From IMG/VR virus record IMGVR_UViG_3300010883_000016: a DNA stretch of 64,000 bases; one strand, 5' to 3'. Below, one piece after another: positions 8,310 to 39,701 of this stretch (the stretch's first letter is position 1; every line of letters starts with the position of its first letter). The notes under the pieces were generated by a model. That model saw only the letters and a list, made by a program, of their open reading frames with translations, was not told where the DNA came from and made no database searches. The DNA is from an uncultured virus (IMG/VR IMGVR_UViG_3300010883_000016) (taxonomy: Duplodnaviria; Heunggongvirae; Uroviricota; Caudoviricetes). The position numbers were made by a program, and so were the translations under genes.

Positions 8310-9293
8310 ATGAGTAATAAATTAGAACAATTATATAATTATTTAAAAGCCAATTCGTTTGATGGTGAAGCCGAGCAGATTCTTAAAATTGCAGGTCTGA
8401 CCCATGATGAAATGATGGAGGCTTATGGCCAACCATCATGTTGCGGTGAAGAATTTAAGCAGGGCGGTTATGACTGGGAAGTTATATGTCATGAAGATGA
8501 TGATGAGTATCAATATAAATTAAAATGGAACAGGCCCGGGGCGTGGGTTGCTAAAAAGAATCCCGATAAACGTGACGGCAATTGGGCGGCAAAGGCTGAT
8601 GCCTGGGTTACGCTCGATGCTCATAGAAAAAACGTATTATCTAAATGCAAAGATAGAGAGCTTACGATTGAGGAGCCCGAGATGGATGTGCCTTCTGGAC
8701 CAGATGTTATCGGGTATGGCCCAGACTCTTGGATGCTATACGGAGATCCTGACCCTGACCAATACCGCTCCACCACCACCCAGCCCGAACCACCGCAAGA
8801 GCCTGTTGCTACAGAAGTAAGAGTATTTACCGACGAAGAAGTATTTAATTCACTTTCTGAACCTGGCGGATATGCTCCGGCAGATCCAAAGTCTATAGGC
8901 AGAAATGTTCTTAGACCTCAAGATAATTGGGTTGATAATATAGTTGCAAATTTTGCAGATTATTTTGTTACGCATGAAGAAGCAAGTTTTAAAGAGTGGA
9001 AGAAGCTTAATAAGCCTGACACTGTGCCATACGTTGTGACAATGAGGCCGAGGGGCTATGGCCAAAGAGAGAATATAAAGAGTTTCTTAATAGCGCGACA
9101 TGGTGATGAACAGTATAGGATATTTGGGAAACCACGCGGTTCTGAGCAGGAGACGGTTCTGAATTGGTATGGGCTCGAAGGTCTTCATGGCTATATAAAC
9201 AGAAATAAACCAGGAAGAACTAAGGAGACCATTAAGGATAAGCTGGAGAGGTGGAAGAGAGAGCGTAGTTTTAGAGATAGAGGAAAAAAATAG
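8310..9293 (+). CDS. Leader-family protein (divergent leader), unknown cargo
   Basis: N-terminus MSNKLEQLYNYLKANSFDGEAEQILKIA. Confidence 0.7.
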   Translation: MSNKLEQLYNYLKANSFDGEAEQILKIAGLTHDEMMEAYGQPSCCGEEFKQGGYDWEVICHEDDDEYQYKLKWNRPGAWVAKKNPDKRDGNWAAKADAWVTLDAHRKNVLSKCKDRELTIEEPEMDVPSGPDVIGYGPDSWMLYGDPDPDQYRSTTTQPEPPQEPVATEVRVFTDEEVFNSLSEPGGYAPADPKSIGRNVLRPQDNWVDNIVANFADYFVTHEEASFKEWKKLNKPDTVPYVVTMRPRGYGQRENIKSFLIARHGDEQYRIFGKPRGSEQETVLNWYGLEGLHGYINRNKPGRTKETIKDKLERWKRERSFRDRGKK

Positions 9294-9309
9294 GTGGTAA
9301 GAAATAAGT

Positions 9310-9756: not shown

Positions 9757-9774
9757 ACATTATATAGTGACAAA

Positions 9775-20037: not shown

Positions 20038-20121
20038 TTATATAAATATCATATAAAATTTAAACTTTTAGCCCTTATATTCTATTAATTACTTTAAATA
20101 ATGTTAGAAATAGGAGCTGAA

Positions 20122-20271
20122 ATGGATATAAGTAAACTAATATCTCTTGCAAATTATTTAGATGAAATTGGCTTAACAAAAGAGGCCGAGCTTATTGATA
20201 ATTTGATCATATCTACACAGAGTGGTGTTTTAGATAATGATCAGGATGAGCAAGATGAAGAATCAGAATAA
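20122..20271 (+). CDS. Leader-only micro-protein (49 aa, not in ORF track)
   Basis: AGGAG RBS; MDISKLISLANYLDEIGLTKEAELIDNLIISTQSGVLDNDQDEQDEESE. Confidence 0.75.
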   Translation: MDISKLISLANYLDEIGLTKEAELIDNLIISTQSGVLDNDQDEQDEESE

Positions 20272-21224: not shown

Positions 21225-21292
21225 ATTAGTCTCTAATTATAATTCTATTATTTTTCAAGGGTAGAATGAATATAATATCAAAGGAGGTTATT

Positions 21293-21664
21293 GTGTTAAC
21301 TGAACTAATAAAATTAGCTGATAGTATGGATAGGGGTGGTGATTTTGATTCTGCAACTAAAATTGACAGTATTATTAACTCAATTAATAAGTCTAATTTA
21401 AAGAGCGATGAAATGTTGGGCTCAATTCTTTCGCTAGCAGATGAGTTAGATGCGAGTGGCCTTGATTCTTTTGCCGATAAAATTCAAAGCCTTTTGAAGA
21501 AAAGAGCCGATGATGATGATGAAGATGATGAAAAAGAATCGGATACGTTAAAGATGTCTATAAAAGAGTTGATTGAGAAGCTTGATGATGATGGGCTAAA
21601 CAACGCGGGCTTGGAGCTTGGCGATTGGAGCGTTCATCTTAATAAAAGAAAAGATGAAGATTGA
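21293..21664 (+). CDS. Protein built of tandem leader-like repeats
   Basis: AGGAGG plus GTG start; LIKLADSMDRGGDFDSATKIDSII and ILSLADELDASGLDSFADKIQSLLKKRA. Confidence 0.75.
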   Translation: MLTELIKLADSMDRGGDFDSATKIDSIINSINKSNLKSDEMLGSILSLADELDASGLDSFADKIQSLLKKRADDDDEDDEKESDTLKMSIKELIEKLDDDGLNNAGLELGDWSVHLNKRKDED

Positions 21665-21702: not shown

Positions 21703-22998
21703 ATGAATTCTGTTGATAAAAAACTACTTGCGCTTGAGAGCTATCTTAAAGAAAACGGATATGGCTCCGAGTCTATTGGTGTGTCAAGAATAAGAAAAGA
21801 GTCTTTTGAAAAAGCCTCATCTGTTTCTGGTGGCAAGTGCTCTGATGCCGTAATGAAGGCAGAGATAAAGGAAAGATGCTTTGAGTGTGACAAGCTAAAG
21901 GAAACAGATAATTATAGACATATAATGGTTAAAGCAGAGAAAGATGATTATCCTGTAATTACAGAATATACGGTAGACCATGTTGGTAAATCACGCACGG
22001 CCACCGGCAGAACATTGGTAGGTCATCATGCAATGGTTGGCAAAACAGGCGTAATGAAGTGGAAGGAGGAGGCCTGCAAGAGGTTGAGCGGAGTTACATA
22101 TGAGCCGGGCGATATGATCACGGTAGGCTTGCCTGAGATCGGAAGAGTAGAGGTGCCGATTATTTCTGTTGACAATCCAAAGTCTGGCGAGTGCGTGGGA
22201 AAAGATTGTGATAAAACTCAAATAAAACTAACTATTAAAATACCAGATGTTGGCGCAGAAAAGCCAAATCCTTTGGCAGAGTATCAGGGGAAAACATTTG
22301 CTATATTTCGCACAAAACCATTAAGGTTCGAATACAAAGTTGTTGGATTTTTAGATGATGACTGTGCTTTCAGTGAATCGTTGTATGAAAATCTAACCGA
22401 TGAGCAGTTCATAAGAACATGCTTTAAATATAGCTCTGGAGTTCCGGACGAACAACACAATAGGCAGCCATTTGTGAGCGATGATGCCGCCCACGTATAT
22501 GGTGAATGGGCGGATAAAATTGCTGAAATAGAAGGCTCTGCTCGTGATAACCCGGGAAATAGCTGCGGATTTGGGAAGGGCTACACCCATGGGGCGATCT
22601 GCCCGGATATCGGCAGCGAGAAGTTTAATATTGATATAAAAAGCCCAAAGGATGGAACCACTTATAAATCTGGCTCTGGGGGGCTTACCGCCTCAGTCAA
22701 TATTACGATGGAAAATGGTGACATCCTACCCAAAGAGTATGTGGTAACATTATACTATCACGATCTTGGAAATCCATTTGATGTTCAAAGAACCCAGGCT
22801 TCTTCTGGTATGTTTTGTGGAAATCTTGGAAGGGTTGGCGACAAAGTGTTCTCCACAAGAATGTCTTTTGATAGACTAAATACTGGTAATGTGCCTGGAA
22901 AAAAACTTGGTGTTGATTATTGGATTGCAATAAGTTGCGGAAATGATATAATATTTAGATCAAATTCCGGTAAAATAACTGTTGAGACGGTTAAATAG
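21703..22998 (+). CDS. Leader-family protein (divergent leader), Cys-rich cargo
   Basis: KKLLALESYLKENGYGSESIGVSRIRK N-terminus. Confidence 0.7.
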   Translation: MNSVDKKLLALESYLKENGYGSESIGVSRIRKESFEKASSVSGGKCSDAVMKAEIKERCFECDKLKETDNYRHIMVKAEKDDYPVITEYTVDHVGKSRTATGRTLVGHHAMVGKTGVMKWKEEACKRLSGVTYEPGDMITVGLPEIGRVEVPIISVDNPKSGECVGKDCDKTQIKLTIKIPDVGAEKPNPLAEYQGKTFAIFRTKPLRFEYKVVGFLDDDCAFSESLYENLTDEQFIRTCFKYSSGVPDEQHNRQPFVSDDAAHVYGEWADKIAEIEGSARDNPGNSCGFGKGYTHGAICPDIGSEKFNIDIKSPKDGTTYKSGSGGLTASVNITMENGDILPKEYVVTLYYHDLGNPFDVQRTQASSGMFCGNLGRVGDKVFSTRMSFDRLNTGNVPGKKLGVDYWIAISCGNDIIFRSNSGKITVETVK

Positions 22999-24989: not shown

Positions 24990-25102
24990 ATTAATTCTCC
25001 ATTATATATTTAGTTTTATACTTTTTTGTATTACTTAAAATAAGAATATTCTATTATTTTTCATAATTAAAATGAAACATTAGTAGTATGCTTGGAGCGA
25101 TA

Positions 25103-25729
25103 ATGATAAATGACATTGCAAAGCTTTCAAACAATCTTAAAAAACTAGGATTTGAGAGAGAGGCTTCGAGGGTGGGAATCTTAATATCTGCTATAGCAGT
25201 TAAAAATAATGATAATGAAAGATTAGCTAAGCAGATTTCATACTTTAAATACAAAGTATATGGCTCTCCGGCAAAAGAGTATATTGATAAAGGTGGCAAG
25301 AAGAGAGTCCGCAGGGCAACCTTGCCGCAGCCATTGGCAATTTTGGCACCACACCATAGGGGATGGTCCGAAGATCAAATGATGGTGTATCCACATTTAA
25401 AGGCAGAGGCCGTAGAGGTTCTTTTGGGTCAAAAGATTCAGATTAACTGGCAGAACCCTGTGCCTGAGGATGCTCAATATATGTACTTTAATTTAAGCAC
25501 TCCAGACGATGTGCCGATTTATAAAGATAAAGAGCTATCAGGGTTTGAGCAGCTTGCTGCAGAAATAACGGCAGAAAGATTCCCGGATTATTTTATTCAG
25601 TCTGAGTACCTAAACGACTCTTTCCCTGAGCTAAAGGATGTTGCTGAGCAAGCAAAGACTGATGTTGTATATTTTGAAGAGAAGGCTGAAGAGTATGAGG
25701 ATTCAATCGAGTATGAAGAAGACGAATGA
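25103..25729 (+). CDS. Leader-family protein
   Basis: MINDIAKLSNNLKKLGFEREASRVGILI. Confidence 0.7.
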   Translation: MINDIAKLSNNLKKLGFEREASRVGILISAIAVKNNDNERLAKQISYFKYKVYGSPAKEYIDKGGKKRVRRATLPQPLAILAPHHRGWSEDQMMVYPHLKAEAVEVLLGQKIQINWQNPVPEDAQYMYFNLSTPDDVPIYKDKELSGFEQLAAEITAERFPDYFIQSEYLNDSFPELKDVAEQAKTDVVYFEEKAEEYEDSIEYEEDE

Positions 25730-26832
25730 TTAGCAAACTTATAAATCTAGCAAGCGCTTTAGATGAGTTGGGCCTTAAGAAAGAAGCCGACCAAATAGAT
25801 GGTTTAATAAAAAATGCTTTTGCGCCCCTCGGCCCTATAGCTATTGAAAAACTTATATCGACCTCTCCAGTGTGGGGCCCTCCAGCCGTAGAGGCCGGCG
25901 TATCTGCGTGGGTATGGGTCGCTACAGCCTTGGGCATTGGTGCGGCTGCCGGTGGTGCTTATTACTACTCTCAGGAAGAGGCTGAGGCGGACCTAAGAAG
26001 GGTTGGGGACTTATACAACAGAGACGCGTACCAGCAGCGCCCTAGAGAATATGGTGCTGGTGCGGATATAGATGGAGATAGAGATACTGATACCGATGAC
26101 TACTCAGAATGGGTTATCTCCGCACCAACTGATAGTGCACAAGAGCAAACTGAAAATTTTAAACTCTGGTATGACGACAATAGGGGCCGGGTAAATAGGA
26201 CCCTCGAAAAGGAGAAGCTTTCAGAATCTGATTCGGTTGGTAGGCCAATTTACCTTCCGACAGTAGACGTGTCAGAGAGTGTTGAACCTATGAGCGAGTT
26301 GGAGCGAGAGTATAAGAAGGATGAAGAGGGCGTTGAGCCCTGTACGTATGTTTGTTGGGCAGAGAAAAAAGAAGGTAGCGCTGGCCACTACACCTACCAT
26401 CTATATGTGAGCCATGGGGCACGAGGAAAAAGGGGACTTTCCTTTGGCGAGTTAGAGATAATCTTGAATGAGGCAATTGTGTCTGGAAGTTACGATAGCA
26501 TTGCAGCAAAAACTGCGGTATACATGGTTACCCCTCCGGGAGGAGTTCACTCAACGGTGGATCCATGGTCGCTTAATGCATCATCATTTCTATATAGTGG
26601 AATGTACAAATGGGCTTGCGCCAGGTGCGAAGACCCTGAGGGAAATTTTGTGGTTAAAAACATATCCAACACAACAAAATCATGCCCTATAGAATATGCT
26701 TATAATAATGAATTTCTTGAAATATCAGAAAATGTTACGACAAATATATATCTCAGCACTTGCGACTCCTCTATGGAGGGGTTTGCGGGTCTTGGTACTT
26801 CAATTTTTGGGAAGTGTCCCCCTCTAAAATGA
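25726..26832 (+). CDS. Leader-family protein with hydrophobic segment and Cys-rich C-terminus
   Basis: MISKLINLASALDELGLKKEADQIDGLIKNA. Confidence 0.8.
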   Translation: MISKLINLASALDELGLKKEADQIDGLIKNAFAPLGPIAIEKLISTSPVWGPPAVEAGVSAWVWVATALGIGAAAGGAYYYSQEEAEADLRRVGDLYNRDAYQQRPREYGAGADIDGDRDTDTDDYSEWVISAPTDSAQEQTENFKLWYDDNRGRVNRTLEKEKLSESDSVGRPIYLPTVDVSESVEPMSELEREYKKDEEGVEPCTYVCWAEKKEGSAGHYTYHLYVSHGARGKRGLSFGELEIILNEAIVSGSYDSIAAKTAVYMVTPPGGVHSTVDPWSLNASSFLYSGMYKWACARCEDPEGNFVVKNISNTTKSCPIEYAYNNEFLEISENVTTNIYLSTCDSSMEGFAGLGTSIFGKCPPLK

Positions 26833-27446
26833 TTAATAATCTTATAAATCTTGCAAACGCTCTAGATGAGTCGGGTTTAAAGAAAGAGGCCGACCGCGTT
26901 GATGTTATAATTAAAAAAAGTAGCTGCGAAGAAAAGGACCGGGCGTGGAGATCGAAATGGGATGAGTGGCATGCTGCACATGAAGGTGCAAAAGCACGAC
27001 TTTGTGAAAAAGGTGGGGCTAACTTTGAAACAAAGATGTGTATAAAACGTATTAAAGAAGTTAACAAATTACACGATGAAGTTGAAAAGTTAAAGGGGGA
27101 GTACGAGGCGTGCCAGGAGTCGAGTCCGCTAGCAAATTCATCTTGCGCTCGGGAGATTGCAAATTATAATGCCATCCAAAAGCAGCATGATGACCTTATA
27201 ACAAGACATGAGAAATGCTTAGCGGATAATAAAGGAAAGTCTGCGTATTTTACCGCTTGCAAGCCAATCCAAAAAGAAATAGACGAAGTTAACCCAAGAT
27301 TATGTAACGCCCTGCTAAAGGCAAGAGCGGCTTGCGGATGTGTTCCAAAAAATGGCGGACAAAGATGCCATGGGCGATCAGATGGAGGCAGATTTGAGCT
27401 TCCTGGTGCGTGGAAAGAGTGCAGAGAGCAGAACGAGGGTGGCTGA
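26829..27446 (+). CDS. Leader-family protein, Cys-rich helical cargo
   Basis: MINNLINLANALDESGLKKEADRVDVIIKKS; ATGA overlap. Confidence 0.8.
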   Translation: MINNLINLANALDESGLKKEADRVDVIIKKSSCEEKDRAWRSKWDEWHAAHEGAKARLCEKGGANFETKMCIKRIKEVNKLHDEVEKLKGEYEACQESSPLANSSCAREIANYNAIQKQHDDLITRHEKCLADNKGKSAYFTACKPIQKEIDEVNPRLCNALLKARAACGCVPKNGGQRCHGRSDGGRFELPGAWKECREQNEGG

Positions 27447-28286: not shown

Positions 28287-28290
28287 TAAC

Positions 28291-28623: not shown

Positions 28624-28732
28624 GCTTGTATATAAATTACCGTCTAAACGCTTTATTATTGCGAATAATACCTTAAGTATCAATAGTTATAATTACTACT
28701 AATTTTTATAGCTTATTTGAGCGAGGCGCGTT

Positions 28733-29656
28733 ATGAGCAATAAACTTATTCAGCTAGCAGATTATCTTGATTCTTTGGGACTGCACAAAGAAGCCGACTA
28801 TATTGATTATATGGTTGTAAAAGGCTCAGAACAAGACGGTTGGGATCTCGACGAAGAGCTCGGGCCAAAATTAAAAGAAGAGACAGAAGAGGGGAGTTCC
28901 CGTGACTATAGATCGCAGCCAATTGCTGTAGGCGAGAGTAGCGGCGATGACCTCTACGATGAAGATGCAGAACTCGACAAGGAAAATAAAGAGTGGGCTT
29001 ATAACGAATGCATGCAGAGGGCTCTAAAGAAGGAGCTTGGGTCTTCTGGCCTTGAGCATCTGATTGGCGTAGGCTTTATGGATATTCCTGAGGAAGATAT
29101 TGAAGCGCACGGCAGGGCTGAAGATGCTGCAAGTGACGCATGTTCTCATATATATCGTAGCAATAAACATTGGGGTGAGTGGGGAGCTTCAGACTCAGAA
29201 CCACAACGAGGCGATGGCAAGGTTGAAGTAGACCCCGGAGAGATGCATGATCTTGCAGATTTAATGGAAGAAAAAGGCCCTAGCTTCTTCAAAGACCTCG
29301 GGAACACCTTGTCATGGAAGCTTAGAAGTATAATGCCCAAGCCAATAAGAGGTCTGCTGCAAGGTATGGGCCCCGGCGATCCTTTAAAAGATGATCGTGA
29401 TGAGTTAGAAGAAGCTATTGCAAGATATGTAAATAAGAATTATGAAAATAAAGGAACGGTAGAGTCTATAGAGTGGGGCTGGCAAGAGAGCGCCGATACA
29501 TATTCATATGCGGTTATGGTCAGAAGACCTTATCCTGGAGAAGAAGACTACATGGAAGATTGGGTTATGTGGATAGGCCCACTTGATGAGGATATATACT
29601 ATGGAACAAGTGAGAGAATTGAAGGCACCAACTATCATATTGCAGGGGAATGGTAG
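28733..29656 (+). CDS. Leader-family protein, acidic cargo
   Basis: MSNKLIQLADYLDSLGLHKEADYIDYMVVKG. Confidence 0.8.
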   Translation: MSNKLIQLADYLDSLGLHKEADYIDYMVVKGSEQDGWDLDEELGPKLKEETEEGSSRDYRSQPIAVGESSGDDLYDEDAELDKENKEWAYNECMQRALKKELGSSGLEHLIGVGFMDIPEEDIEAHGRAEDAASDACSHIYRSNKHWGEWGASDSEPQRGDGKVEVDPGEMHDLADLMEEKGPSFFKDLGNTLSWKLRSIMPKPIRGLLQGMGPGDPLKDDRDELEEAIARYVNKNYENKGTVESIEWGWQESADTYSYAVMVRRPYPGEEDYMEDWVMWIGPLDEDIYYGTSERIEGTNYHIAGEW

Positions 29657-29949
29657 TGATTAATAAACTAGTAAAATTTGCAAATCACCTAGACGCCATG
29701 GGGCTATCAAAAGAGGCCGATTATCTTGACCACTTGATGAGCCATAGCGATGAGCCATTGAAAGGTGACTCGATTGAAAATATCAATCCTGGGTGCACAC
29801 ACTTTGGCAGTGAGGGCGTAGTAAAGGATGTTACGGACCTTCCAGACGACCAGGGCGTTGTTGCCGTATATGTAGTTACAAATGATGGCGATACATATTC
29901 AAAGGGCGATATTTTAGAAAAAACAGTTGATCAGCTAAAGGTTGTATAG
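29650..29949 (+). CDS. Leader-family protein with small SH3-like cargo
   Basis: INKLVKFANHLDAMGLSKEADYLDHLM; GDSIENINPGCTHFGSEGVV. Confidence 0.75.
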   Translation: MVVINKLVKFANHLDAMGLSKEADYLDHLMSHSDEPLKGDSIENINPGCTHFGSEGVVKDVTDLPDDQGVVAVYVVTNDGDTYSKGDILEKTVDQLKVV

Positions 29950-29956: not shown

Positions 29957-30889
29957 ATGGACCTCTTGTCAGATCTTTATAATGAATTATTAAGGCTCGG
30001 TTGGCGCAGCCAAGCGCTTGAGGTTTCTAGCTTGATTAAAAAGTATGCAGACGATGGTAGCGCTGCCGATGGTGGCGCTGCCGATGGTAGCGCTCTTACT
30101 GACGAACAGCTAAAGCGTTGGGACTGCGACAAGGCATCACGGCGCAAGAACTCACGACAAATGGCTATGGCCAAAGGGTATAAAGAGAAGGGATACAGCA
30201 TGTACCCTTGCGATTGGCTCAATAGACTTGAGGCAAAAAAGCCAGAAAATTTTGTAAAATTAAAAGGCAATAATGTTTACAAGTCAAATCAAATATCTAT
30301 TCACGAACTAGAGTGGATCCTAGATCCATCAAGAGGCTATGGTATAACAAAAATTTTAAGGTTTAGTGATAACGACCCTGGTGGTGATGGTAAGTATGAT
30401 ACACCATGGGGAAAGTTAACTACAGAACTTGAGGGAGCTTTTGCAAAAAGCAGGGGTGTTGAGTTTGAATTTATAAATGTTCATGATGGTGGCGAGATAG
30501 ATCGAAGCTGCGGATACACAACAACGTTAGCTAAAATTCTTCCTATTTTAAAAGAAGGAAATGTTCTTGTGCATTGTAGAGCCGGAAGAGATAGGACTGG
30601 CATGGTTGTTGGCGCACACTTGGTCCATAATATGAATATGAGCCCGGCAGACGCATGGGCTATCGTCAAAACGTTTGATTCTCGGGCTGATTATTGGCGA
30701 AACATGGTGTGCAAAAATTCCGGCCAAACTGCGTACTTAGCAGCATTTTATCCAATAGACGAATGGTGCGACAACGAACTTACAGAGCGTCAGCGAAAAA
30801 ATTGCAATGCTTGCAAAAATAAAGAATACTTGAAAAGAAGAACCACATCTGAGTGCTCTGAAAGAATAGAGGGACATTCGAATGAGTAA
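29957..30889 (+). CDS. Leader-family protein with PTP/DSP-type phosphatase domain
   Basis: LSDLYNELLRLGWRSQALEVSSLIKKYA; VLVHCRAGRDRTG (HCx5R). Confidence 0.85.
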   Translation: MDLLSDLYNELLRLGWRSQALEVSSLIKKYADDGSAADGGAADGSALTDEQLKRWDCDKASRRKNSRQMAMAKGYKEKGYSMYPCDWLNRLEAKKPENFVKLKGNNVYKSNQISIHELEWILDPSRGYGITKILRFSDNDPGGDGKYDTPWGKLTTELEGAFAKSRGVEFEFINVHDGGEIDRSCGYTTTLAKILPILKEGNVLVHCRAGRDRTGMVVGAHLVHNMNMSPADAWAIVKTFDSRADYWRNMVCKNSGQTAYLAAFYPIDEWCDNELTERQRKNCNACKNKEYLKRRTTSECSERIEGHSNE

Positions 30890-31208: not shown

Positions 31209-31786
31209 GCGTATCGACAAATGCTGTAGTGGTTGAGGGCTTGAAGAGACTAGCAAATCATTTTGACTCAAGAGGTCTTTTTACAGAAGCAAATTATATT
31301 GATGGCATAATAAAAGTAGCTGCAAGAAAGAAGGCGAAGTACCCACAGGCTTTTAGGGTGTGGATTATGAGGGTTTTTGATGGCGAGAGCAAGGATCATT
31401 GGTATGGAGAAGCGGATGGTAGTTCTGGTGCGTGGCAGCCAATAAACAAAGACCTCTTTATTCTTCAATTAAAGCATCTTAGAGACAGATTTTTTTCATC
31501 ATCTTATTCGGACGGGTTTTCAAGCTCATCTGGTGGTGGAAAAATGAAGAAGTCAAATGGTTACCTGAGAAGTGTTAGTCCGGAAACTCTAGACTATATT
31601 CTTGAAAAATGGATGAATCCGGCACCAGTTAGTGCTCCACAACAAGGTGACGGCGTAGTTGATATAGTTCCTGGTGAGCTGCATGATCTTGCTGATGAAA
31701 TGGGGGGCGAAGGTGAGCATGGGCTTCATGATGAGCCACTCTATTGGCCCAACTCAGAACAGCTGGGTCTCTTTGAGAATAGTTAA
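31205..31786 (+). CDS. Leader-family protein
   Basis: LKRLANHFDSRGLFTEANYIDGIIKVA. Confidence 0.8.
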   Translation: MSVSTNAVVVEGLKRLANHFDSRGLFTEANYIDGIIKVAARKKAKYPQAFRVWIMRVFDGESKDHWYGEADGSSGAWQPINKDLFILQLKHLRDRFFSSSYSDGFSSSSGGGKMKKSNGYLRSVSPETLDYILEKWMNPAPVSAPQQGDGVVDIVPGELHDLADEMGGEGEHGLHDEPLYWPNSEQLGLFENS

Positions 31787-31838
31787 ATTTTTTAGCTATT
31801 ACTTTTTATTATATATATGAACTTCACGGGTGAGAATT

Positions 31839-32357
31839 ATGATTAATAAGCTTATAAATTTAGCAAATAATTTGGACAAAATAGGCCTAAGTAAAGAAGC
31901 TAGTCAGATCGATGACGTACTGCAATCAGTAATTAAAATGATTGACGACGAACGTATTGATATAGGTGAAACAGAAGCGGGTGATGCTGAGGTTGTGTTT
32001 GATTTGTTTATAGATAATAAAGGTAGAGCTGTTGGGGCCGAACCAGCCTCAGGAGATTTGGGGTCCACATGTATTATGAATGAAGAAATCTCTGAAGAGG
32101 ATGGTGTGGTTGTAGAATATGATGTTGCAGGTGCAGATGAAGAGGGTGAAGAATCGGGCGAAGAAGAGATTTGTGTTGTAGATGTAGAAGATTCTTGTGC
32201 CATGCAAATGACTGATGCCATTCTGGAAGAGCTAAAAGATGCTCTAGAAGAATGGGAGGATAAAGACTACAAGTCTGATAAGGCAAGATCTAAAGCTTAC
32301 CATAAGGATGTAGAAGATATTGTGGGAGAATTTAGTGCAGGGCTGATAGACGATTAA
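31839..32357 (+). CDS. Leader-family protein, very acidic cargo
   Basis: MINKLINLANNLDKIGLSKEASQIDDVL. Confidence 0.8.
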   Translation: MINKLINLANNLDKIGLSKEASQIDDVLQSVIKMIDDERIDIGETEAGDAEVVFDLFIDNKGRAVGAEPASGDLGSTCIMNEEISEEDGVVVEYDVAGADEEGEESGEEEICVVDVEDSCAMQMTDAILEELKDALEEWEDKDYKSDKARSKAYHKDVEDIVGEFSAGLIDD

Positions 32358-32372: not shown

Positions 32373-33101
32373 GTGGCTAACAAACTGATAAAGCTTGCAG
32401 ACGCTCTGGACTCAATGGGGTTGCACAAAGAAGCGGATTGTGTTGACGATATTTTAAAGATAGTTGTCGCCGGCGGCCCGTGCTCAAGCAAACAAGGGTG
32501 GACGTGTGTTGAGGGATATCCAAGCATATCCGTGGCTGTAGGCCCGGGCGACATTATTATTCTTGGAGACAGCCAAGTTGGTGGAGAGTTGGGAAGAAAT
32601 CTTAAGGGTACTAGATATTTATCAAACTCATCAACAGTTAATGAGTGGGTTGGTCATACAGCACCAGGTAGCGGCTTTTCTAATAAATTAATAAATGCTT
32701 CAAAGATATATATAATTCTTGGTGGAAACGGGGGTGAGCTAACAGATGAGCAAAGAGCCGCTGGGGCCTCAAGAGGAAGCGTCGTGCCCGCTAGCGCCAG
32801 TGCGCTTATTCGAAACATAAGAAGTTCTGCTCCAAACGCAAAAGTATCATGGATAACTCCAGCGCCACCGGCAGCCGGGTCTGATGATTATAATGATAGA
32901 AGGGATGATCGAGAGCTAAGCAATCAAAATATAATCGACGGTTTGATTGAATACTCTGATGTAAATGTAATTAATTCACATGAAATAATAAGAGAAAAGT
33001 ATCATGGCGAAAGCTGGCCTTGTAACGGTTGCCATGACGGAATACACCTCCGTGGAGAGCCGGCAAGGCATATTTCCGATGCAGCTAAGAATTCTCCCTA
33101 A
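32373..33101 (+). CDS. Leader-family protein with SGNH/GDSL hydrolase domain
   Basis: Leader; ILGDSQ, ILGGN, DGIH blocks. Confidence 0.8.
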   Translation: MANKLIKLADALDSMGLHKEADCVDDILKIVVAGGPCSSKQGWTCVEGYPSISVAVGPGDIIILGDSQVGGELGRNLKGTRYLSNSSTVNEWVGHTAPGSGFSNKLINASKIYIILGGNGGELTDEQRAAGASRGSVVPASASALIRNIRSSAPNAKVSWITPAPPAAGSDDYNDRRDDRELSNQNIIDGLIEYSDVNVINSHEIIREKYHGESWPCNGCHDGIHLRGEPARHISDAAKNSP

Positions 33102-34119
33102 TCTTTTTTATTTGTTCTAAAAGCTCACGCTCTTCATCAGTGATGTTTTTAGGTATATCCACAAGTATTTTATTATATTGGCTGCCCACAGAGCTGCTGT
33201 TCATTATATAAGAACCCTTACCCCTTATTCGTATAGTATCGCCAGGCTGAGTGCCCCTTGGGACCCTTACTTCGCACTTTCCGTGTAAGGTGTCTACTAT
33301 GGCTGTTCCGCCAAGACAGGCTGTTGCGTAATCTATGGTTAAATTATAAGATATGTTGCCGCCATTTAATCTCGAGTAGATCCCGTGAGGTTTTTCTGAT
33401 ATTGTTAAAAATAGATCGCCAGGGTGCCCGCCGTAACCAGAGTCGTTTCCCTTCCCAGACAGCCTCATTACTGCTCCATCGTCAATTCCTCTTGGGAGGG
33501 TGACCCTCAGTTTATCATTTTTGGTTGCATACTTCATCCCGTTACATGCTTTGCATTTATTTTTTATAATGGTTCCCTCGCCATTGCAAGATCTACATTG
33601 TGATTGCAGGATCATAAACCCATTATTTTGTGACAGGATGCCTTTCCCGCCGCATGTTTCACAGCTTTTAAGTATAGCTTTGCCATCTGAGCCTGCTCCT
33701 TTGCACGGCCCGCAGGATATATTTCTTGGTATATTAAAGGATATTGACCCACCTTTAAATATATTTTCTAAGGATACATTCACGGTATATTTTACGTCAG
33801 ACCCTCTCTTGCTTCGCCTGCTTGTGCTGCGACGACCAAATAGATCTCCAAAGCTTCCAAATAGATCTTCAAATCCACTAAATCCGAAACCATTCATGGA
33901 GCCTGGGTCATTGTGCCCAAATCTATCATAACCCGCTTTTTTATTTGGGTCTGACAGCGTATTGTATGCCTCATTTATTTCTTTGAATTTCTTTTCCGCA
34001 CCAGGGTCGTCATTCTTGTCTGGATGATATTCCATTGCGAGAGACCTGAATGCTTTTTTTATCTCTTTGTCTGTTGCATTCTTGGACACACCAAGCATGC
34101 TATAATAATCCTGATTCAT
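33085..34119 (-). CDS. dnaJ: Chaperone DnaJ
   Basis: J domain with HPD; G/F region; four CxxCxGxG-type repeats; C-terminal domain. Confidence 0.96.
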   Translation of the reverse strand: MNQDYYSMLGVSKNATDKEIKKAFRSLAMEYHPDKNDDPGAEKKFKEINEAYNTLSDPNKKAGYDRFGHNDPGSMNGFGFSGFEDLFGSFGDLFGRRSTSRRSKRGSDVKYTVNVSLENIFKGGSISFNIPRNISCGPCKGAGSDGKAILKSCETCGGKGILSQNNGFMILQSQCRSCNGEGTIIKNKCKACNGMKYATKNDKLRVTLPRGIDDGAVMRLSGKGNDSGYGGHPGDLFLTISEKPHGIYSRLNGGNISYNLTIDYATACLGGTAIVDTLHGKCEVRVPRGTQPGDTIRIRGKGSYIMNSSSVGSQYNKILVDIPKNITDEERELLEQIKKIRENS

Positions 34120-34210
34120 CTTATCTTCCCAATTAGGCTTGATCGCACAAAATACTATTACTTTTTACGCATAAATCGAAATTAAATATGCAAAACTTTA
34201 TAGGTTTATT

Positions 34211-35083
34211 ATGATTAACAGGCTAATAGCGTTAGCAAACTACTTAGACTCAATTGATGCCGAAGAAGAGGCGGATGAGGCTGACCAGCTAATAGAAGGG
34301 GCAGTAGAGCCGCCTGATGAGGGGCCTGATGAGGGGCAAGCTGCTGATAATGTTGACAATATATATTTTACAGAAACAGAGGATACCCCAGAAGACGAAA
34401 CTTATGAGGAGATTGAAGCAGACTATAATGGAGAGTGGAATGTGCACAGGGGGGAGCTGCAAAGCCCCACTGGTGAAAGAATATCTGTAAGAAAAATAAG
34501 ACAAGGTAGTTTTTCAAAGGTTTATGAAATAAATAATGATCCATATAATATATTAGTAAACACCAAGGGCGGCATCAGCGATAAGGAGATACTTTCGGGT
34601 ATATATGAAGATGAGCTTTCTTTGAGCCCAGATGATAGAAACCCGCACCTTCCCCAGGTTAGAGAGATAGGGTTTGCGCAGGATGGAAGATTCTATGTTA
34701 TGAAAAAATATAAAATGCCACTAAGGAAGGGTGATACTGAAGATTGGAGTGATTATTCATCAATAAAGATGTGTTGGGCTGAGGCGCAAAGCTTAGTTTA
34801 TGATAGAAATTCTAATAGAAAGTACAAAACTGAATATTATAATCTTGGTGGTGAAATACTTAATGAAGTGGTAAATTGTGCTATTAAAAATAATATAAAG
34901 CAGAGCCTCATAGAGGCTTTGGAGTCCCTAAGGAATTCTGCTTCGGCATATGGAGCAGAGTATGGATTTGAGATTAGCCCAAGAAATGTTGGTGCGGATG
35001 AGCATGGGAACCTAGTTCTTGTTGATGTAATATTTGATATGAAGGCAATGCACAATATGCATCGTGGTAAGCGAAGGGGGTGA
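34211..35083 (+). CDS. Leader-family protein with protein-kinase-like fold
   Basis: Leader; QGSFSKVY loop, NPHLPQV, YVMKKY, EISPRNV, LVLVD. Confidence 0.7.
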   Translation: MINRLIALANYLDSIDAEEEADEADQLIEGAVEPPDEGPDEGQAADNVDNIYFTETEDTPEDETYEEIEADYNGEWNVHRGELQSPTGERISVRKIRQGSFSKVYEINNDPYNILVNTKGGISDKEILSGIYEDELSLSPDDRNPHLPQVREIGFAQDGRFYVMKKYKMPLRKGDTEDWSDYSSIKMCWAEAQSLVYDRNSNRKYKTEYYNLGGEILNEVVNCAIKNNIKQSLIEALESLRNSASAYGAEYGFEISPRNVGADEHGNLVLVDVIFDMKAMHNMHRGKRRG

Positions 35084-35087: not shown

Positions 35088-35921
35088 GTGATTAATAAAC
35101 TTATAAAACTTGCAAACTGCCTAGATGAGTCAGGCTTTAAGAAAGAGGCTGATAGGGTAGATGCGCTTATAAGAAAAAATGGAATTGCCATATTAGCGCC
35201 ATTCGCTATTCCGGGCGCTATGTTGATTATAGCGGAACTAATAGCTCTTGCTGGGCTAGCTGTAACGGTGGCTTGGGTTATAAGGGAATTATTTATAAGG
35301 TATTATAATGAGTCCAGTAAAGAAGGAGTTGTTGATAGAGCATCAGATGCTTTAAATAAAGTTGAGCAAACACCAGAGTCGGATTACCCAATAAATCCAG
35401 AGCATAATAAAGCTCCGACAAAAGAAGACGTTAAAGTCGGCGTAAAAGACCTGGCAAAGCTGCTGCCTGAAATTTCAATCATATTTGATGAAAAAAGAAA
35501 AGAAGAAAGGGTTTATACTATATCGTGCCTTGCAACAAGTGACGGGATTGATGTAGATTATTTTTATTTTGACTCACCAAGTATTCCGGGCTTGGTAGTA
35601 GACGATGTATGTGAAAGGTTAACTGGTCCAGGTGGTATACCAGTCGGCTATATAATGCCTGGCCCGATATTATTTGGCCGGCCGCCAAAGTGGGGGGAAG
35701 AATATGATGCGGGAGGAATATCTGGCGTAAGCGTAAGAGGAAGCCCTGATCTTGAAATGGAAAATATAGTAAGTTGGATTTGCAAAAACAAACCGTGGGT
35801 TGACGCTGTAAGGGTGCATGATCAGGCTGGGCCAAAATATTGTGGCAATAAGCGTCAATTTTCATTGTTATACGAAGAGCAAGGCGTTCTTCATGGCCCA
35901 TGGAAGTGTAAAGATGACTAA
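35088..35921 (+). CDS. Leader-family protein with TM-like segment
   Basis: INKLIKLANCLDESGFKKEADRVDALIRKNG followed by ~33 hydrophobic residues. Confidence 0.8.
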   Translation: MINKLIKLANCLDESGFKKEADRVDALIRKNGIAILAPFAIPGAMLIIAELIALAGLAVTVAWVIRELFIRYYNESSKEGVVDRASDALNKVEQTPESDYPINPEHNKAPTKEDVKVGVKDLAKLLPEISIIFDEKRKEERVYTISCLATSDGIDVDYFYFDSPSIPGLVVDDVCERLTGPGGIPVGYIMPGPILFGRPPKWGEEYDAGGISGVSVRGSPDLEMENIVSWICKNKPWVDAVRVHDQAGPKYCGNKRQFSLLYEEQGVLHGPWKCKDD

Positions 35922-37026
35922 CAATCTGACTAACAAGCTTATAAACTTAGCAAATACCTTGGATGAGTCAGGCTTTAAGAAAGGGGCTGATAGGGTAGAT
36001 TCGCTTATAAAGAATGCAGATAAAGGTGCGGCAAAAATTACCTATGACGAAGAAGAACAATTAATCAAAGACCATACCAATAATAAATCTATTAGTTGGC
36101 CAGAGTTGTTTCAATTATTTCAAAATGTATCATCAAGCTTGATAGATAATTGGGTTAAGACAGATGACTTTATAAATGCTATATATAATAAAGCCAAAGG
36201 GGACACCCCCCGGGGCTACAAGTACGTTCGAATTCCACAAGAAGTCTTTATGGAGAATTTATTAAAAAAAATAACCTATCCTGGGCTGGGATTTACTTTT
36301 GAAATTCACAATGACTACGGTGCCAAGGCGTCATATCAAGTAGAACCCAATCAAATCATAATATGGATGCAAGTTTTTGCCAGATCAAATGGGATAGATA
36401 GTATTAAATATCTCACAAAAGTTATTACGCACGAAGTTACACATGCAATTCAGTTTCAAATAAAAAATCTAAAAACAGGAACTTATGTTCCGGTCGGATT
36501 AGGTCAGAGGTGGCGGAAGCCGATAGACACAGCAATGACAACAGATATGAGCGAGGTTTTTTCTGGTGAGATTAATTCGATTATAGATAGGGGGGCTATA
36601 GACAGCTATGATAAATTTGTAGAAATAATGCTTAATAAATCAACCAATTTTAAAAGTTACATCGAAGAGAGCCTAGCCGAAGACCCGGATCACTACAGGG
36701 GGATCTGGGAGGAGCACAGGGGGTCTACTTTTCAAGATATACATATACATCAACAATTAACCAAGTTAAAGTTAATAATTAAAGATACTGCAAATAATAT
36801 AAATAGCTATACAGACTTCTGCAGCCTAACGCTTGATCAGGTCAAATTCCCATCTGAATTGAGCGAAATAAGCTCGCTTTTATATATATTAAAATGTGAT
36901 GAGGCTTCACAAATAACATTTAATGAAGATATAGCTACAAATATTAATACGACAAGCCCCGATCCGCTTGGCTCACCAAGTACGGTTAGCGCCAATCTAA
37001 GGACACACAGGCTGGCTGTTAAATGA
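35914..37026 (+). CDS. Leader-family protein with zincin (HExxH) domain
   Basis: NKLINLANTLDESGFKKGADRVDSLIKNA; ITHEVTHAIQ. Confidence 0.8.
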   Translation: MTNNLTNKLINLANTLDESGFKKGADRVDSLIKNADKGAAKITYDEEEQLIKDHTNNKSISWPELFQLFQNVSSSLIDNWVKTDDFINAIYNKAKGDTPRGYKYVRIPQEVFMENLLKKITYPGLGFTFEIHNDYGAKASYQVEPNQIIIWMQVFARSNGIDSIKYLTKVITHEVTHAIQFQIKNLKTGTYVPVGLGQRWRKPIDTAMTTDMSEVFSGEINSIIDRGAIDSYDKFVEIMLNKSTNFKSYIEESLAEDPDHYRGIWEEHRGSTFQDIHIHQQLTKLKLIIKDTANNINSYTDFCSLTLDQVKFPSELSEISSLLYILKCDEASQITFNEDIATNINTTSPDPLGSPSTVSANLRTHRLAVK

Positions 37027-39701
37027 TTAACAAACTTATAAACCTTGCGAATGCTTTAGATGAGTCGGGTCTCAAGAAAGAGGCTGATAGGGTAGATTCG
37101 CTTATAAATAATGAGGAGGTGGAGCCTTCAAGCCGACCGAAAGCACAACATTTGATTTTATATCCAGAAAATAACAAGAGTAGCTCCTTGGAGGACAAAT
37201 CGGCCAAAGCTTTAATCAATTATTTTGATCGAACAGGGTTATTTTCTTATGCAAATTCTATATATAAGCTCTTTTCATTTGCTGGAATAGAAGATCATGG
37301 GCAAAGAATAGGCGAGGCCGCCCATTACAGGGAGGACCCCTTCAAAGGATGGTTCGGAGGACTGGATAGGGTATATTTGCCATACGGTGAAGAAGATAAC
37401 TCAAGAAATGATAAAGAAACATTTTTAAGAACTGAATTTAAAGATATATTAGAGTGGATAGATAAGTATACGGCAGAAAGCTCAAGTGGGGCATCTCTTT
37501 TGGACGGCAGAATGCAGTCGGGAAGAAAAATAGGCGGTAAGTTTTTTCTTCAAATTATGAAGGGAAGGCTGGATGATTTTTATAATGATAATCATAATAA
37601 CATAAATATTGACAAAGCTGGGTTTATAAATATTTTTTCATCTTTATTTGGCAAAAATGAAGGAGCGCAGAGTGGCAGTTGGGGGGCCAGCACAAATCTT
37701 ATGTCAATGGTTTCCGAAAGAGATATATATAGCGGGGATGATTTTGAAAGGATTAGTTTTTTAGATAATTTATCTGGAATAATAAGTGATGCAAATATTA
37801 TATCAAAAGATTATATGGCTTCTCCGGTTAGGGGGAATATAAGAGTTAAAGATTATGGACTTGTGATTACAAAGGATCCAACCGATGTTGCTGCGATGTC
37901 TACCGGCAGAAGATGGACATCGTGTGTAAACCTTGATGGAGGGTCCCACAGTTCAGATGTTTTTTGCGAAATAAGAGCTGGTGCTTTTGTTGCTTATCTT
38001 ATTGAGTCAGATGACACAAGGATAGAGAGGCCACTTGCGAGAGCTAGGGCTAGAAGGTTTGATAGCAAGAGCGGCGATTCAATTGCTATATTGGAAGATG
38101 AAGTTTATTCCGATGGCACTGAATTCCCGGGATTTCTTGAAGCCATACAGGTCTGGATTGACAGCAAGCAAGGCGTGCTGGAGTATGGGACGTATCACAG
38201 AAGAGGTGGTGTTTGGTCTGATACGTTTGAAGAAACATATGATGTAGAAAAAGAATATCCAAAAGACCTACAGACACTATCAGACATTATAATGAGTCCG
38301 CAAGAAAATTTAGAAGAAAAGCGGGACACATATGTAGTTACTGATGAGTTGTTTGAAGAACATGAAGAATACTTCTCTGACGAAGGAGACGGCGATACTG
38401 ATACATACAATAACGAGCATAATTTAAGAATTTTTCACTTAGAAGAAGGCGGAATGTCGTTTGGTGATTATGAAAAAGCAGAAGAATGGATAAAAGAGCA
38501 TAGTGACCATTGGCAAAGCGAACTTCTTGGTTTTATAGAGGGTAATCCTAAGTTATCTCATGAAATCGATACTAATTATGAACCATATTCGGACGAAGAA
38601 GAGGATGAGATAAAAGAGTCGATTGAGAAGTCCCCGTGGGAGGGAAGAGTTACATCTGCAGAGGGAGCCTCTCTTATGGAATATGTTTCAAATAAAGATA
38701 AGAGATTCAAAATAAAAACTGATACTGCTGAGGAAAAAATACAAAGAGAGGTTAAAAAGATTAGCAGCTTATTTTACAATAAGCTGAAGGAAGATTATTT
38801 GGCAAAAAATCTAGATAAAACAAAATTTAATACAGATGCCGTGAAGAAGTCTATAGAGTCCGGAAGGGAGAATCTGTCGCCCCAGCAAATATTAGACAAT
38901 GAGTTATCGCTTACTCTTGGCGGATATGCGGTAATGTTTCCAGAATTTTTTTCAAAGAAAGAATTAGAAAAAGTATTTGATAAGAACAAGAAGAAGCTTA
39001 AAGATGTTGCGTTTGATTATTCAGCGATAGAGGATGAGGGCGCAAAAGAAGAAATGAGGCGGGAAATTATGTCCATCTTGGAGTCAAAATTAGAATATGG
39101 AAGTTTAAGATTGGGCTATGAAAGAGAGGGGAATTATTACGGTATTAATAGGGGAGGGTACGGAAGGCACCATCTTGAGACACGATATGAGAATAGAGTT
39201 GAAAGTGATGTTATAAAAATATTAAATAATGAATCCCCGTTGCCAAACGGTTTTTCTGATAAGATAATTGATTTATACAAAACTGTAGATAGAGATGATG
39301 AGTTCGCAGAAAACCCCAAGGAAAAATTAAAAGAAGAGGGTAAAGAGCGCATGAGGACTGAGATCCTAGGACTGCTTGCGGCCATGAATGCACACAACCC
39401 AAGGACAATATTCTTTTATAAAGATATTTTATCAAAGATACACATAAGTACATCTGATGATATTAGCGACTATACAGGTTTAGTATATTTAATTCAAACA
39501 ATAAGCAAGGTCGGCATATCAGGTGAGCCATTGGTACCAGAGTTAGAAAGACTATTTAAAGATGCAGACAGTGTGGATGCAAGTGAACATGATATACTTG
39601 CCAATAGTGACGTAAAAAAGAAAATTCATGATTTTAAACGAAGAATTATTTTTGTAATAAAAGCAATAAGGTCGGATGATATGGAAAAAAATGTTAAGTA
39701 A
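37023..39701 (+). CDS. Large leader-family protein (two leader copies), unknown cargo
   Basis: MINKLINLANALDESGLKKEADRVDSLI and ALINYFDRTGLFSYANSIYKLFSFA. Confidence 0.85.
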   Translation: MINKLINLANALDESGLKKEADRVDSLINNEEVEPSSRPKAQHLILYPENNKSSSLEDKSAKALINYFDRTGLFSYANSIYKLFSFAGIEDHGQRIGEAAHYREDPFKGWFGGLDRVYLPYGEEDNSRNDKETFLRTEFKDILEWIDKYTAESSSGASLLDGRMQSGRKIGGKFFLQIMKGRLDDFYNDNHNNINIDKAGFINIFSSLFGKNEGAQSGSWGASTNLMSMVSERDIYSGDDFERISFLDNLSGIISDANIISKDYMASPVRGNIRVKDYGLVITKDPTDVAAMSTGRRWTSCVNLDGGSHSSDVFCEIRAGAFVAYLIESDDTRIERPLARARARRFDSKSGDSIAILEDEVYSDGTEFPGFLEAIQVWIDSKQGVLEYGTYHRRGGVWSDTFEETYDVEKEYPKDLQTLSDIIMSPQENLEEKRDTYVVTDELFEEHEEYFSDEGDGDTDTYNNEHNLRIFHLEEGGMSFGDYEKAEEWIKEHSDHWQSELLGFIEGNPKLSHEIDTNYEPYSDEEEDEIKESIEKSPWEGRVTSAEGASLMEYVSNKDKRFKIKTDTAEEKIQREVKKISSLFYNKLKEDYLAKNLDKTKFNTDAVKKSIESGRENLSPQQILDNELSLTLGGYAVMFPEFFSKKELEKVFDKNKKKLKDVAFDYSAIEDEGAKEEMRREIMSILESKLEYGSLRLGYEREGNYYGINRGGYGRHHLETRYENRVESDVIKILNNESPLPNGFSDKIIDLYKTVDRDDEFAENPKEKLKEEGKERMRTEILGLLAAMNAHNPRTIFFYKDILSKIHISTSDDISDYTGLVYLIQTISKVGISGEPLVPELERLFKDADSVDASEHDILANSDVKKKIHDFKRRIIFVIKAIRSDDMEKNVK

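What the first reader, a model, noticed from the sequence alone, without database searches (positions are those of the whole stretch)
8310..39701. Seventeen unrelated proteins share one ~30-aa N-terminal leader: candidate address-tag system for virion-packaged effectors
Seen: consensus M(I/S)NKLIxLANxLDxxGLxKEADxIDxLIKxA at the N-terminus of ORFs at 8310, 20122, 21293, 21703, 25103, 25726, 26829, 28733, 29650, 29957, 31205, 31839, 32373, 34211, 35088, 35914 and 37023 (8310, 21703, 25103 and 29957 are more divergent). Similarity stops right after the leader, often at K-x-A (LKIA, IKNA twice, KKYA, IKVA, KKRA). The cargoes differ: HCx5R phosphatase, kinase-like, SGNH hydrolase, HExxH zincin, SH3-like, Cys-rich and acidic domains, 49 to 892 aa in total. 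It is not a Sec/Tat/lipoprotein signal; it reads as an amphipathic helix-G-helix hairpin resembling one TPR-like unit. Established analogy: T4 internal proteins carry a capsid-targeting sequence removed by the prohead protease, and phiKZ head proteins have cleaved propeptides. Inference: a modular tag that loads a library of enzymes into the capsid for injection, with K-x-A as the maturation site.
Basis: partly seen in the sequence, partly recalled or inferred. Interest (0 to 1): 0.9.

Follow-up and report, generated by a model that had tools for sequence, protein, structure and literature searches.

The report
Portable hairpin tag, jumbo-phage proteins
At least 13 unrelated proteins of this uncultured marine jumbo phage start with the same 31-residue two-helix module, which in related phages also sits inside and at the ends of head-assembly proteins and most likely loads proteins into the assembling phage head, although this has not been shown experimentally.

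Summary
The leader is real. A leave-one-out HMM supports 13 of 17 ORFs; 25103 and 29957 are a divergent subtype; 21703 and 8310 are doubtful. It is a 31-aa helix-Gly-helix hairpin with no Pfam, PHROG or PDB family and 2,434 relatives at 50% clustering. Where placed, it lies in uncultured 220-335 kb myoviruses whose nearest cultured capsid relative is Bacillus phage G; an exact pattern found 44 viral-contig stretches, none in prokaryotic genomes. It is not strictly N-terminal: it also occurs internally, C-terminally, in tandem and in conserved head-cluster genes. K-x-A is enriched in head-cluster proteins, conserved in the capsid N-extension, depleted in enzymes, and follows the module mainly when cargo follows (148/297 versus 5/30), but only 3 of 13 window copies have it. 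Module operons share a promoter-like box with head/tail operons. Best reading (0.6): a prohead-targeting module released by the head protease, working like the T4 capsid-targeting sequence without being one. Most cargoes are orphans, not enzymes; packaging, injection and binding partner are unshown. The scan noted similar hairpin tags on other DNA before.

The parts
20125..20217 (+). hairpin module, ORF 20122-20271 (49 aa; almost no cargo, acidic tail)
   Evidence: LOO E 6e-11
21293..21385 (+). hairpin module copy 1, ORF 21293-21664 (123 aa)
   Evidence: 31.9 bits with model built from relatives; AF2 helices 2-14 and 18-33
21413..21505 (+). hairpin module copy 2 (tandem) of ORF 21293, ends K-R-A
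   Evidence: LOO E 3e-4; AF2 helices 38-54 and 58-74
25726..25818 (+). module ending K-N-A, ORF 25726-26832 (368 aa, orphan cargo)
   Evidence: LOO E 1e-14
26829..26921 (+). module, ORF 26829-27446 (205 aa, Cys-rich cargo)
   Evidence: LOO E 5e-15
28733..28825 (+). module, ORF 28733-29656 (307 aa, acidic cargo)
   Evidence: LOO E 6e-13
29656..29748 (+). module, ORF 29650-29949 (99 aa)
   Evidence: LOO E 4e-9
31229..31321 (+). module ending K-V-A, ORF 31205-31786 (193 aa)
   Evidence: LOO E 3e-5
31839..31931 (+). module, ORF 31839-32357 (172 aa, one third Asp/Glu)
   Evidence: LOO E 3e-13
32373..32465 (+). module, ORF 32373-33101 (242 aa, SGNH-like cargo)
   Evidence: LOO E 3e-12; Lipase_GDSL_2 4.8e-4, below cut-off
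34211..34303 (+). module, ORF 34211-35083 (290 aa, kinase-like cargo)
   Evidence: LOO E 2e-5; atlas lead
35088..35180 (+). module, ORF 35088-35921 (277 aa)
   Evidence: LOO E 7e-15
35926..36018 (+). module ending K-N-A, ORF 35914-37026 (370 aa, HExxH cargo)
   Evidence: LOO E 7e-13
37023..37115 (+). module, ORF 37023-39701 (892 aa)
   Evidence: LOO E 2e-15
37194..37286 (+). degenerate older module inside ORF 37023; matches the N-terminus of the G004 orthologue
   Evidence: E 0.012 with the subtype model; orthologue at 35% identity begins with this segment
25103..25195 (+). divergent (subtype B) module, ORF 25103-25729
   Evidence: E 6e-6
29957..30046 (+). divergent (subtype B) module ending K-Y-A, ORF 29957-30889 (HCx5R phosphatase)
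   Evidence: E 6e-4; orthologue P0153 bridges to the canonical motif; DSPc 5.6e-10
21712..21804 (+). doubtful module, ORF 21703-22998
   Evidence: E 0.03; no LOO support
8310..8402 (+). doubtful module, ORF 8310-9293
   Evidence: LOO E 0.0035; E 0.8 with subtype model
20082..20089 (+). promoter-like box CTAYTAHT before 20122
21245..21252 (+). promoter-like box before 21293/21703
25051..25058 (+). promoter-like box before 25103/25726/26829
28696..28703 (+). promoter-like box before 28733/29650/29957/31205
31796..31803 (+). promoter-like box before 31839/32373
34155..34162 (+). promoter-like box before 34211/35088/35914/37023

Best explanation
The window is part of an uncultured marine jumbo myovirus of the phage-G-like capsid lineage. 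The 31-aa element is a folded helical-hairpin docking module. Shown: sequence family, predicted hairpin, occurrence on unrelated proteins at either end and in conserved head-cluster genes, shared upstream box, K-x-A statistics. Inferred: module proteins are made late, the hairpin binds the prohead core (scaffold/core proteins, possibly hairpin to hairpin) and draws its cargo inside before the shell closes; the HK97-type head protease then cuts at or near h-h-K-x-A, releasing cargo that lies downstream. Least supported step: some cargoes are ejected into the next host. New cargoes are recruited by copying the roughly 90-bp module onto other reading frames.
For: (1) Virus-restricted as far as tested: 44 stretches in IMG/VR versus 0 in 185,579 prokaryotic genomes with one exact pattern. 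3 of 3 module records at least 90% complete carry the same major capsid protein; 8 of 10 capsid-selected contigs over 100 kb carry the module. (2) Module copies in conserved head-cluster families: C-terminus of the gene before decoration/capsid in some lineages, the family upstream of terminase, weakly the gene after the portal. In the divergent records G037 and G042, 9 and 3 module genes sit around the protease/scaffold and capsid genes. (3) K-x-A observed versus shuffled: G004 head cluster 74 vs 45.6, G002 98 vs 59, phage G gp4-21 53 vs 25.5 (first or second of 400 gapped pairs); 43 G004 enzymes 67 vs 94; cargoes 262 vs 252. (4) The capsid N-extension has K25-Y26-A27 in 36 of 36 aligned sequences and in the 64%-identical G042 capsid, in the same L-x-x-h-h-K-x-A register as the module's second helix. 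(5) K-x-A at module position 29/30: 148 of 297 copies with sequence following versus 5 of 30 C-terminal copies; about 85/174 versus 3/22 with one copy per cargo cluster (p about 0.002); background 6.5%. (6) A head maturation protease (phrog_18299, E 1e-12) is fused to a K-x-A-rich scaffold-like region. (7) A promoter-like box precedes 6 of 7 window module operon heads (0.3 expected), 7 of 24 G004 head/tail heads and 0 of 33 heads in G004 162-190 kb; EM on 39 head/tail regions alone gave TACTAATAAA, scoring >=8 bits before 4 of 5 module heads versus 12 of 84 others in G005. (8) Precedent: T4 CTS and SPN3US propeptides (PMC9026906, PMC5694885; passages).
Against: No virion proteomics exists for this clade, and no paper found tests a K-x-A cleavage. 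The window holds no head genes; the link runs through relatives that share genes with it. Only 3 of 13 robust window copies end in K-x-A, so most would stay attached or be cut elsewhere. C-terminal copies are more divergent at other positions too (E20 0.89 to 0.60, I27 0.87 to 0.60) and the paired test is only 9 versus 3 of 18. The module holds two more K-x-A (positions 7 and 19) inside helices, so K-x-A may partly reflect helix packing. G002's capsid has R-Y-A. Phage G has the K-x-A bias but no module was found in it (no positive control in those calls). The box was first chosen by eye from both gene sets; the unbiased matrix scores window module heads only 3.9-10.1 bits, matched by 6 of 25 other heads, and the strict box was found before 0 of 11 heads in G004's module island. 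Most module genes of G001, G004, G005 and the window lie in an island away from the head cluster. Cargoes are acidic (18% D+E versus 12.5% K+R), unlike T4's basic internal proteins, and one is 892 aa.
Confidence: 0.6

Rival explanations
1. The hairpin is a structural brick of the prohead core: module proteins co-polymerise with scaffold through hairpin-hairpin bundles, act as filler or size modulators and are degraded. The cargo is mostly passenger sequence and nothing is delivered to the host.
For: Tandem and two-ended copies are common (76 of 149 scored top hits have 2-3 copies). The AF2 model of tandem 21293 aligns over its whole length with four-helix bundles. 13 of 148 single N-terminal copies have under 40 aa of cargo. 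111 of 117 module proteins lack a Pfam match.
Against: Cargoes are not enriched in K-x-A (262 vs 252), unlike the scaffold; some are intact-looking enzymes (phosphatase, GGACT, ferritin, LysM-hydrolase, nucleotidyltransferase). A four-helix bundle is a generic AF2 outcome.
Confidence: 0.2
2. The hairpin docks late proteins onto something other than the head: a host or phage chaperone/unfoldase, the phage tubulin or assembly site, the tail, or a membrane, in the manner of UVR or TPR hairpins.
For: The fold is a generic interaction hairpin; the UvrB UVR domain (Z 6.1, rmsd 0.4, 33 aa) and TPR/PCI units are among the tied best matches. G004 encodes two GroEL and a tubulin. The upstream box only suggests late timing and also precedes tail genes.
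Against: Conserved carriers lie in the head cluster; K-x-A is enriched in head but not tail proteins (35 vs 46); 1 of 103 copies touches TPR_1 (E 0.11) and none UVR.
Confidence: 0.13
3. A neutral or selfish gene-start cassette spread by recombination (good translation start or stabilising N-terminus) with no targeting role.
For: Neighbouring copies are 82-83% identical in DNA while flanks are unrelated; 37023 has gained a fresh copy in front of an old one.
Against: Protein-level conservation with free synonymous sites (12-17 identical codons of 18-24); near-invariant A9, D13, G16, A21, D25 across 229 copies; C-terminal and internal copies cannot serve translation initiation.
Confidence: 0.07

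Closest known systems
Phage T4 capsid targeting sequence (CTS) of IPI-III/Alt, removed by gp21 (PMC9026906, passages)
   Same: Short shared segment on divergent, dispensable-looking proteins; candidate protease site at its end that is also seen in the capsid protein; proposed route for loading varied proteins into heads.
   Different: CTS is 10-19 residues and N-terminal, in T4-type heads with cleavage after Glu. This is a 31-aa folded hairpin, also internal, C-terminal and tandem, part of conserved head-cluster proteins, on up to 24 of 287 called ORFs, with K-x-A, in a phage-G-like lineage.
Propeptides of SPN3US/phiKZ head ejection proteins (PMC5694885, passages)
   Same: Jumbo phage, three-residue motif repeated in propeptides and core proteins; two SPN3US proteins share an identical N-terminus.
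   Different: Those propeptides are mostly over 100 aa, not a shared domain, and are cut at A/S/G-x-E.
P22 scaffolding protein C-terminal helix-turn-helix coat-binding domain (bioRxiv 10.1101/2022.12.13.520362, passages)
   Same: Small helical hairpin acting in prohead assembly.
   Different: Single scaffold protein with basic key residues; here the invariant charged residues are acidic, and the profile does not match this clade's own scaffold C-terminal domain (hhalign 0.8%).
UVR domain / single TPR-like unit
   Same: 35-aa antiparallel hairpin; structural matches at Z about 5-6, rmsd under 1.
   Different: No Pfam support; the structural matches are tied with many unrelated hairpins.
Bacillus phage G (Donellivirus) head module
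   Same: Capsid 51% identical, portal 34%, protease 36%, scaffold-like C-terminus related; same K-x-A bias.
   Different: No module detected and no capsid N-extension in phage G.

Membership tests
T4-type capsid targeting sequence | Shared segment on proteins with unrelated bodies | tested here: met
   13 of 17 window ORFs; 237 cargoes fall into 170 clusters
T4-type capsid targeting sequence | 10-19 residues, strictly N-terminal | tested here: not met
   31-aa hairpin; 20 internal and 17 C-terminal among 113 copies in loci
T4-type capsid targeting sequence | T4-type head genes with cleavage after Glu | tested here: not met
   Relatives have phrog_2522 capsid, gpA-type terminase and phrog_18299 protease; K-x-A is the enriched motif
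T4-type capsid targeting sequence | Ends in the site that the head protease uses on the capsid protein | tested here: inconclusive
   K-x-A shared with the capsid N-extension and enriched when cargo follows, but in 3 of 13 window copies; cleavage itself unobserved
T4-type capsid targeting sequence | Necessary and sufficient for packaging; cargo ejected | not testable with these tools
   needs a cultured phage
TPR repeat | Match to TPR profiles | tested here: not met
   1 of 103 copies at E 0.11 to TPR_1
TPR repeat | Helix-turn-helix geometry of one TPR unit | tested here: inconclusive
   TPR proteins among tied hits at Z 5.1-5.7 together with unrelated hairpins
UVR domain | Profile match | tested here: not met
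   0 of 103 copies at E<=10
UVR domain | Hairpin fold | tested here: inconclusive
   UvrB 2nmv_B Z 6.1, rmsd 0.4, 33 aligned, 6% identity, tied
Scaffold coat-binding hairpin (P22 type) | Homology to the phage's own scaffold C-terminus | tested here: not met
   hhalign probability 0.8% against 26 sequences

The most novel reading that the evidence does not exclude
A position-independent folded packaging domain, borrowed from conserved prohead-core proteins, is copied onto dozens of new reading frames per genome. It gives this jumbo-phage clade a plug-in route by which almost any protein, including newly born orphan genes, is loaded into the head by hairpin-hairpin docking and freed by a K-x-A protease for delivery to the host.
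Probability: 0.35. Interest if true: 0.85.

Novelty: new variant of a known kind. Interest (0 to 1): 0.62.

Why it matters
How large phages choose their internal and ejected proteins is mapped to a sequence essentially only in T4. A conserved, detectable tag would predict the packaged cargo of a whole uncultured clade from sequence, name a candidate maturation motif (K-x-A) that can be tested at once in cultured phage G, and offer a portable packaging tag that works at either end of a protein.

Tried and rejected
No whole genome is held for the window, so genome-wide work used relatives. Family searches: no meaningful Pfam or PHROG family for the module and no PDB sequence match. No cultured phage match by tblastn (short queries, limited sensitivity). 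ESM Atlas gave only unnamed viral clusters under 0.9. Complex prediction of capsid + scaffold C-terminal domain + module gave no answer (score 0.00, controls not folded). Fold searches gave only generic helical matches. Homology of the module to the C-terminal hairpin of the conserved 143-aa head-cluster protein: gap-free register and a canonical module at the syntenic position in G042, but hhalign 3-14%, not above 30 shuffles on the full family; left open. Iterating the canonical HMM did not recover 8310, 21703 or 29957. No IMG/VR locus for the 892-aa protein. The one RNA run laid covers 3 of 30 bins with short contigs and shows nothing about expression. Source names for cluster members could not be looked up. 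The 8 supplementary files of PMC12484599 held as text gave annotation rows only, no virion protein list for gp4-gp21; figure-only proteomics and the 2020 phage G capsid paper were not seen and may bear on K-x-A. Sec/Tat/lipoprotein signal rejected from the sequence (no hydrophobic stretch; internal and C-terminal copies).
Full report
OBSERVATION. The 17 ORFs are present as stated. A leave-one-out HMM supports 13 of 17 at E<=3e-4 against a reversed-frame maximum of 6.5 bits; 8310 and 25103 are marginal; 21703 and 29957 fail. A second model seeded on divergent non-window copies recovers 25103 (E 6e-6) and 29957 (E 6e-4; two of its orthologues were in the seed), 21703 weakly (0.03) and not 8310 (0.8). 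ORF 21293 has two tandem copies; ORF 37023 has a fresh copy in front of a degenerate one, and its G004 orthologue begins with the degenerate one. Leader DNA is up to 83% identical between neighbours with unrelated flanks and many synonymous changes. Three marine or seawater DNA runs cover the region in 30 of 30 bins, so it is not an assembly artefact.

WHAT THE MODULE IS. AlphaFold2 with 103 sequences gives helix 2-14, turn at Gly16, helix 18-33 (pLDDT 94); the tandem protein gives two such hairpins (pLDDT 81, pTM 0.60) that align with generic four-helix bundles. Across 229 copies from relatives the near-invariant residues are L5, A9, L12, D13, G16, E20, A21 and D25. There is no Pfam, PHROG or PDB-sequence family. 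The profile finds 2,434 of 1.84 billion 50%-cluster representatives at E<=0.001; I saw only the best 150. In these, copies were 121 N-terminal, 90 internal and 25 C-terminal (the ranking favours multi-copy proteins, and 1 of 150 gave no domain at my threshold). In fetched loci they were 76, 20 and 17 of 113. It is therefore a portable domain and not only a leader. 237 masked cargoes form 170 clusters. Of 117 of the 150 proteins scanned, 6 have a Pfam match, so most cargoes are orphans; known ones include a phosphatase, GGACT, ferritin, LysM-hydrolase, cupin, J-domain and nucleotidyltransferase.

WHERE IT LIVES. One exact degenerate pattern gave 44 stretches in IMG/VR and 0 in 185,579 prokaryotic genomes. 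Five large records (223-335 kb) hold 3-21 matches each. G004 and G005 share many genes with the window (endolysin 61-62%, IscU 76%). G004 is a myovirus with sheath, baseplate, DnaE polymerase, gpA-type terminase, portal and phrog_2522 capsid (105 of its 113 ORFs over 250 aa scanned). Its best cultured capsid relative is Bacillus phage G (51%). 10 of 31 module records carry this capsid, including 3 of 3 that are at least 90% complete; 12 of 21 capsid-selected records carry the module, 8 of 10 above 100 kb (three records were in both sets). Phage G itself gave no match. The window holds no head genes.

LINK TO THE HEAD. (a) Conserved head-cluster families carry the module: the gene before decoration/capsid at its C-terminus in some lineages (truncated after the first helix in others), the family upstream of terminase, and weakly the gene after the portal. 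In G037 (capsid 74% identical) 9 module genes flank the protease/scaffold gene; in G042 (64%) two strong and one weak lie between portal and capsid and one after the capsid. In G001, G004, G005 and the window most module genes form a separate island. (b) The 1108-aa G004 gene has a head maturation protease domain (phrog_18299, E 1e-12; invariant D-H and S-M-G) and a scaffold-like region, with 18 K-x-A in all. K-x-A is the first or second most enriched of 400 gapped pairs in the head clusters of G004 (74 vs 45.6), G002 (98 vs 59) and phage G (53 vs 25.5), and is depleted in 43 G004 enzymes (67 vs 94) and not enriched in 14 tail proteins (35 vs 46). It lies in the first 40 aa of 13 of 24 head-cluster ORFs versus 7 of 43 enzymes. 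The capsid N-extension keeps K25-Y26-A27 in 36 of 36 aligned sequences (36 of 52 collected were aligned; G002, not among them, has R-Y-A). (c) The module ends in K-x-A in 148 of 297 copies that have sequence following and 5 of 30 C-terminal copies long enough to hold it (9 of 39 were too short and were dropped); with one copy per cargo cluster about 85/174 versus 3/22 (p about 0.002); background 6.5%; cargoes are not enriched. Against this: C-terminal copies are more divergent at E20, A21 and I27 too, the paired test is 9 versus 3, and only 3 of 13 robust window copies have the site. (d) A box CTAYTAHT, picked by eye, precedes 6 of 7 window module operon heads (0.3 expected); 16 of the 17 ORFs lie downstream of these six sites. 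It precedes 7 of 24 G004 and 4 of 11 G002 structural heads, 2 of 22 replication-region heads and 0 of 33 and 0 of 19 putative early heads, but also 0 of 11 heads in G004's module island as called. Unbiased EM on 39 head/tail regions returned TACTAATAAA (log-likelihood 56 vs 26-30 for shuffles), which scores >=8 bits before 4 of 5 module heads versus 12 of 84 others in G005 and 2 of 4 versus 1 of 43 in part of G001, but separates window heads poorly. I read it as a late promoter; that is inference.

MECHANISM. Best reading (0.6): a late-made hairpin docks its carrier on the prohead core, and the head protease frees downstream cargo at h-h-K-x-A. By analogy with the P3-P1 motifs of T4 and SPN3US (PMC5694885, passages) the cut could follow Ala; HK97-type proteases cut after Lys (recalled), so the exact bond is open. 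The binding partner is unknown. Rivals: structural core brick with passenger cargo (0.2), docking to a non-head partner (0.13), neutral cassette (0.07). Injection into the host is the weakest step.

COMPARISON AND NOVELTY. It would work like the T4 CTS (10-19 residues, N-terminal, removed by gp21, sufficient for packaging; PMC9026906, passages) but fails its length, position and lineage features. Eight literature searches and passages of PMC7824862, PMC13282480, PMC3622015, PMC8570332, bioRxiv 2024.12.16.628780 and bioRxiv 2022.12.13.520362 showed no description of this module or of a K-x-A motif; subscription papers are not covered. The scan has noted hairpin tags on jumbo-phage proteins on other DNA (e1-5832759, e1-5811687); sequence look-ups found no look-alike, so I cannot say whether these are the same family. 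Verdict: new variant of a known kind; interest 0.62.

Noticed in passing
window 42807-43475 and 43460-43960 (+): Two unrelated ORFs share a second N-terminal leader (R-T-x-K-L-R-L-L-S-L..I-N-K-x-A) that also ends in K-x-A; 42807 has a variant of the upstream box.
   Followed up: no
window 28733 aa 152-182 and 31205 aa 140-170: Shared 31-aa internal segment (58% identity, E 1e-6) between two module proteins.
   Followed up: partly
window 27641-28623 (+), 33085-34119 (-), 4082-4597 (+): IscU/NifU, Nfu and IscA-type Fe-S assembly genes, a full DnaJ and a peptide deformylase among the module operons.
   Followed up: no
window 44000-56000: G+C rises from about 0.40 to 0.50-0.53; the region holds an ArdC-like anti-restriction gene (54638), a tRNA nucleotidyltransferase (49049) and tRNA-Lys (55699-55774); probably early genes.
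   Followed up: partly
window 57055-57495 and 59859-60341: Paralogous small proteins with 3 copies in G004 and 2 in G005, no PHROG match.
   Followed up: no
L083:10497-12848 (G005): 784-aa tRNA nucleotidyltransferase with a weak HAD match carries the module at its extreme C-terminus; G004, G002 and G001 have another nucleotidyltransferase inside the head cluster.
   Followed up: partly
L091-L170: The clade's major capsid protein is unusually conserved (78-89% identity to G004) and has a roughly 40-aa N-extension missing from phage G.
   Followed up: partly
L056:16215-18635 and L056:4369-8975 (G004): Glycosyltransferase fused to a tubulin/FtsZ domain; PrkA-DUF444-SpoVR trio; two GroEL genes elsewhere in the record.
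   Followed up: no
G002 87366-94106: Terminase (957 aa) and portal (1286 aa) are much longer than in G004 (593, 565), suggesting inteins or insertions.
   Followed up: no
internal module copies in P and L proteins: 27 of 134 internal or C-terminal copies begin at a Met, several behind Gly/Lys-rich residues that could encode a ribosome site: possible gene fusions or second starts.
   Followed up: no
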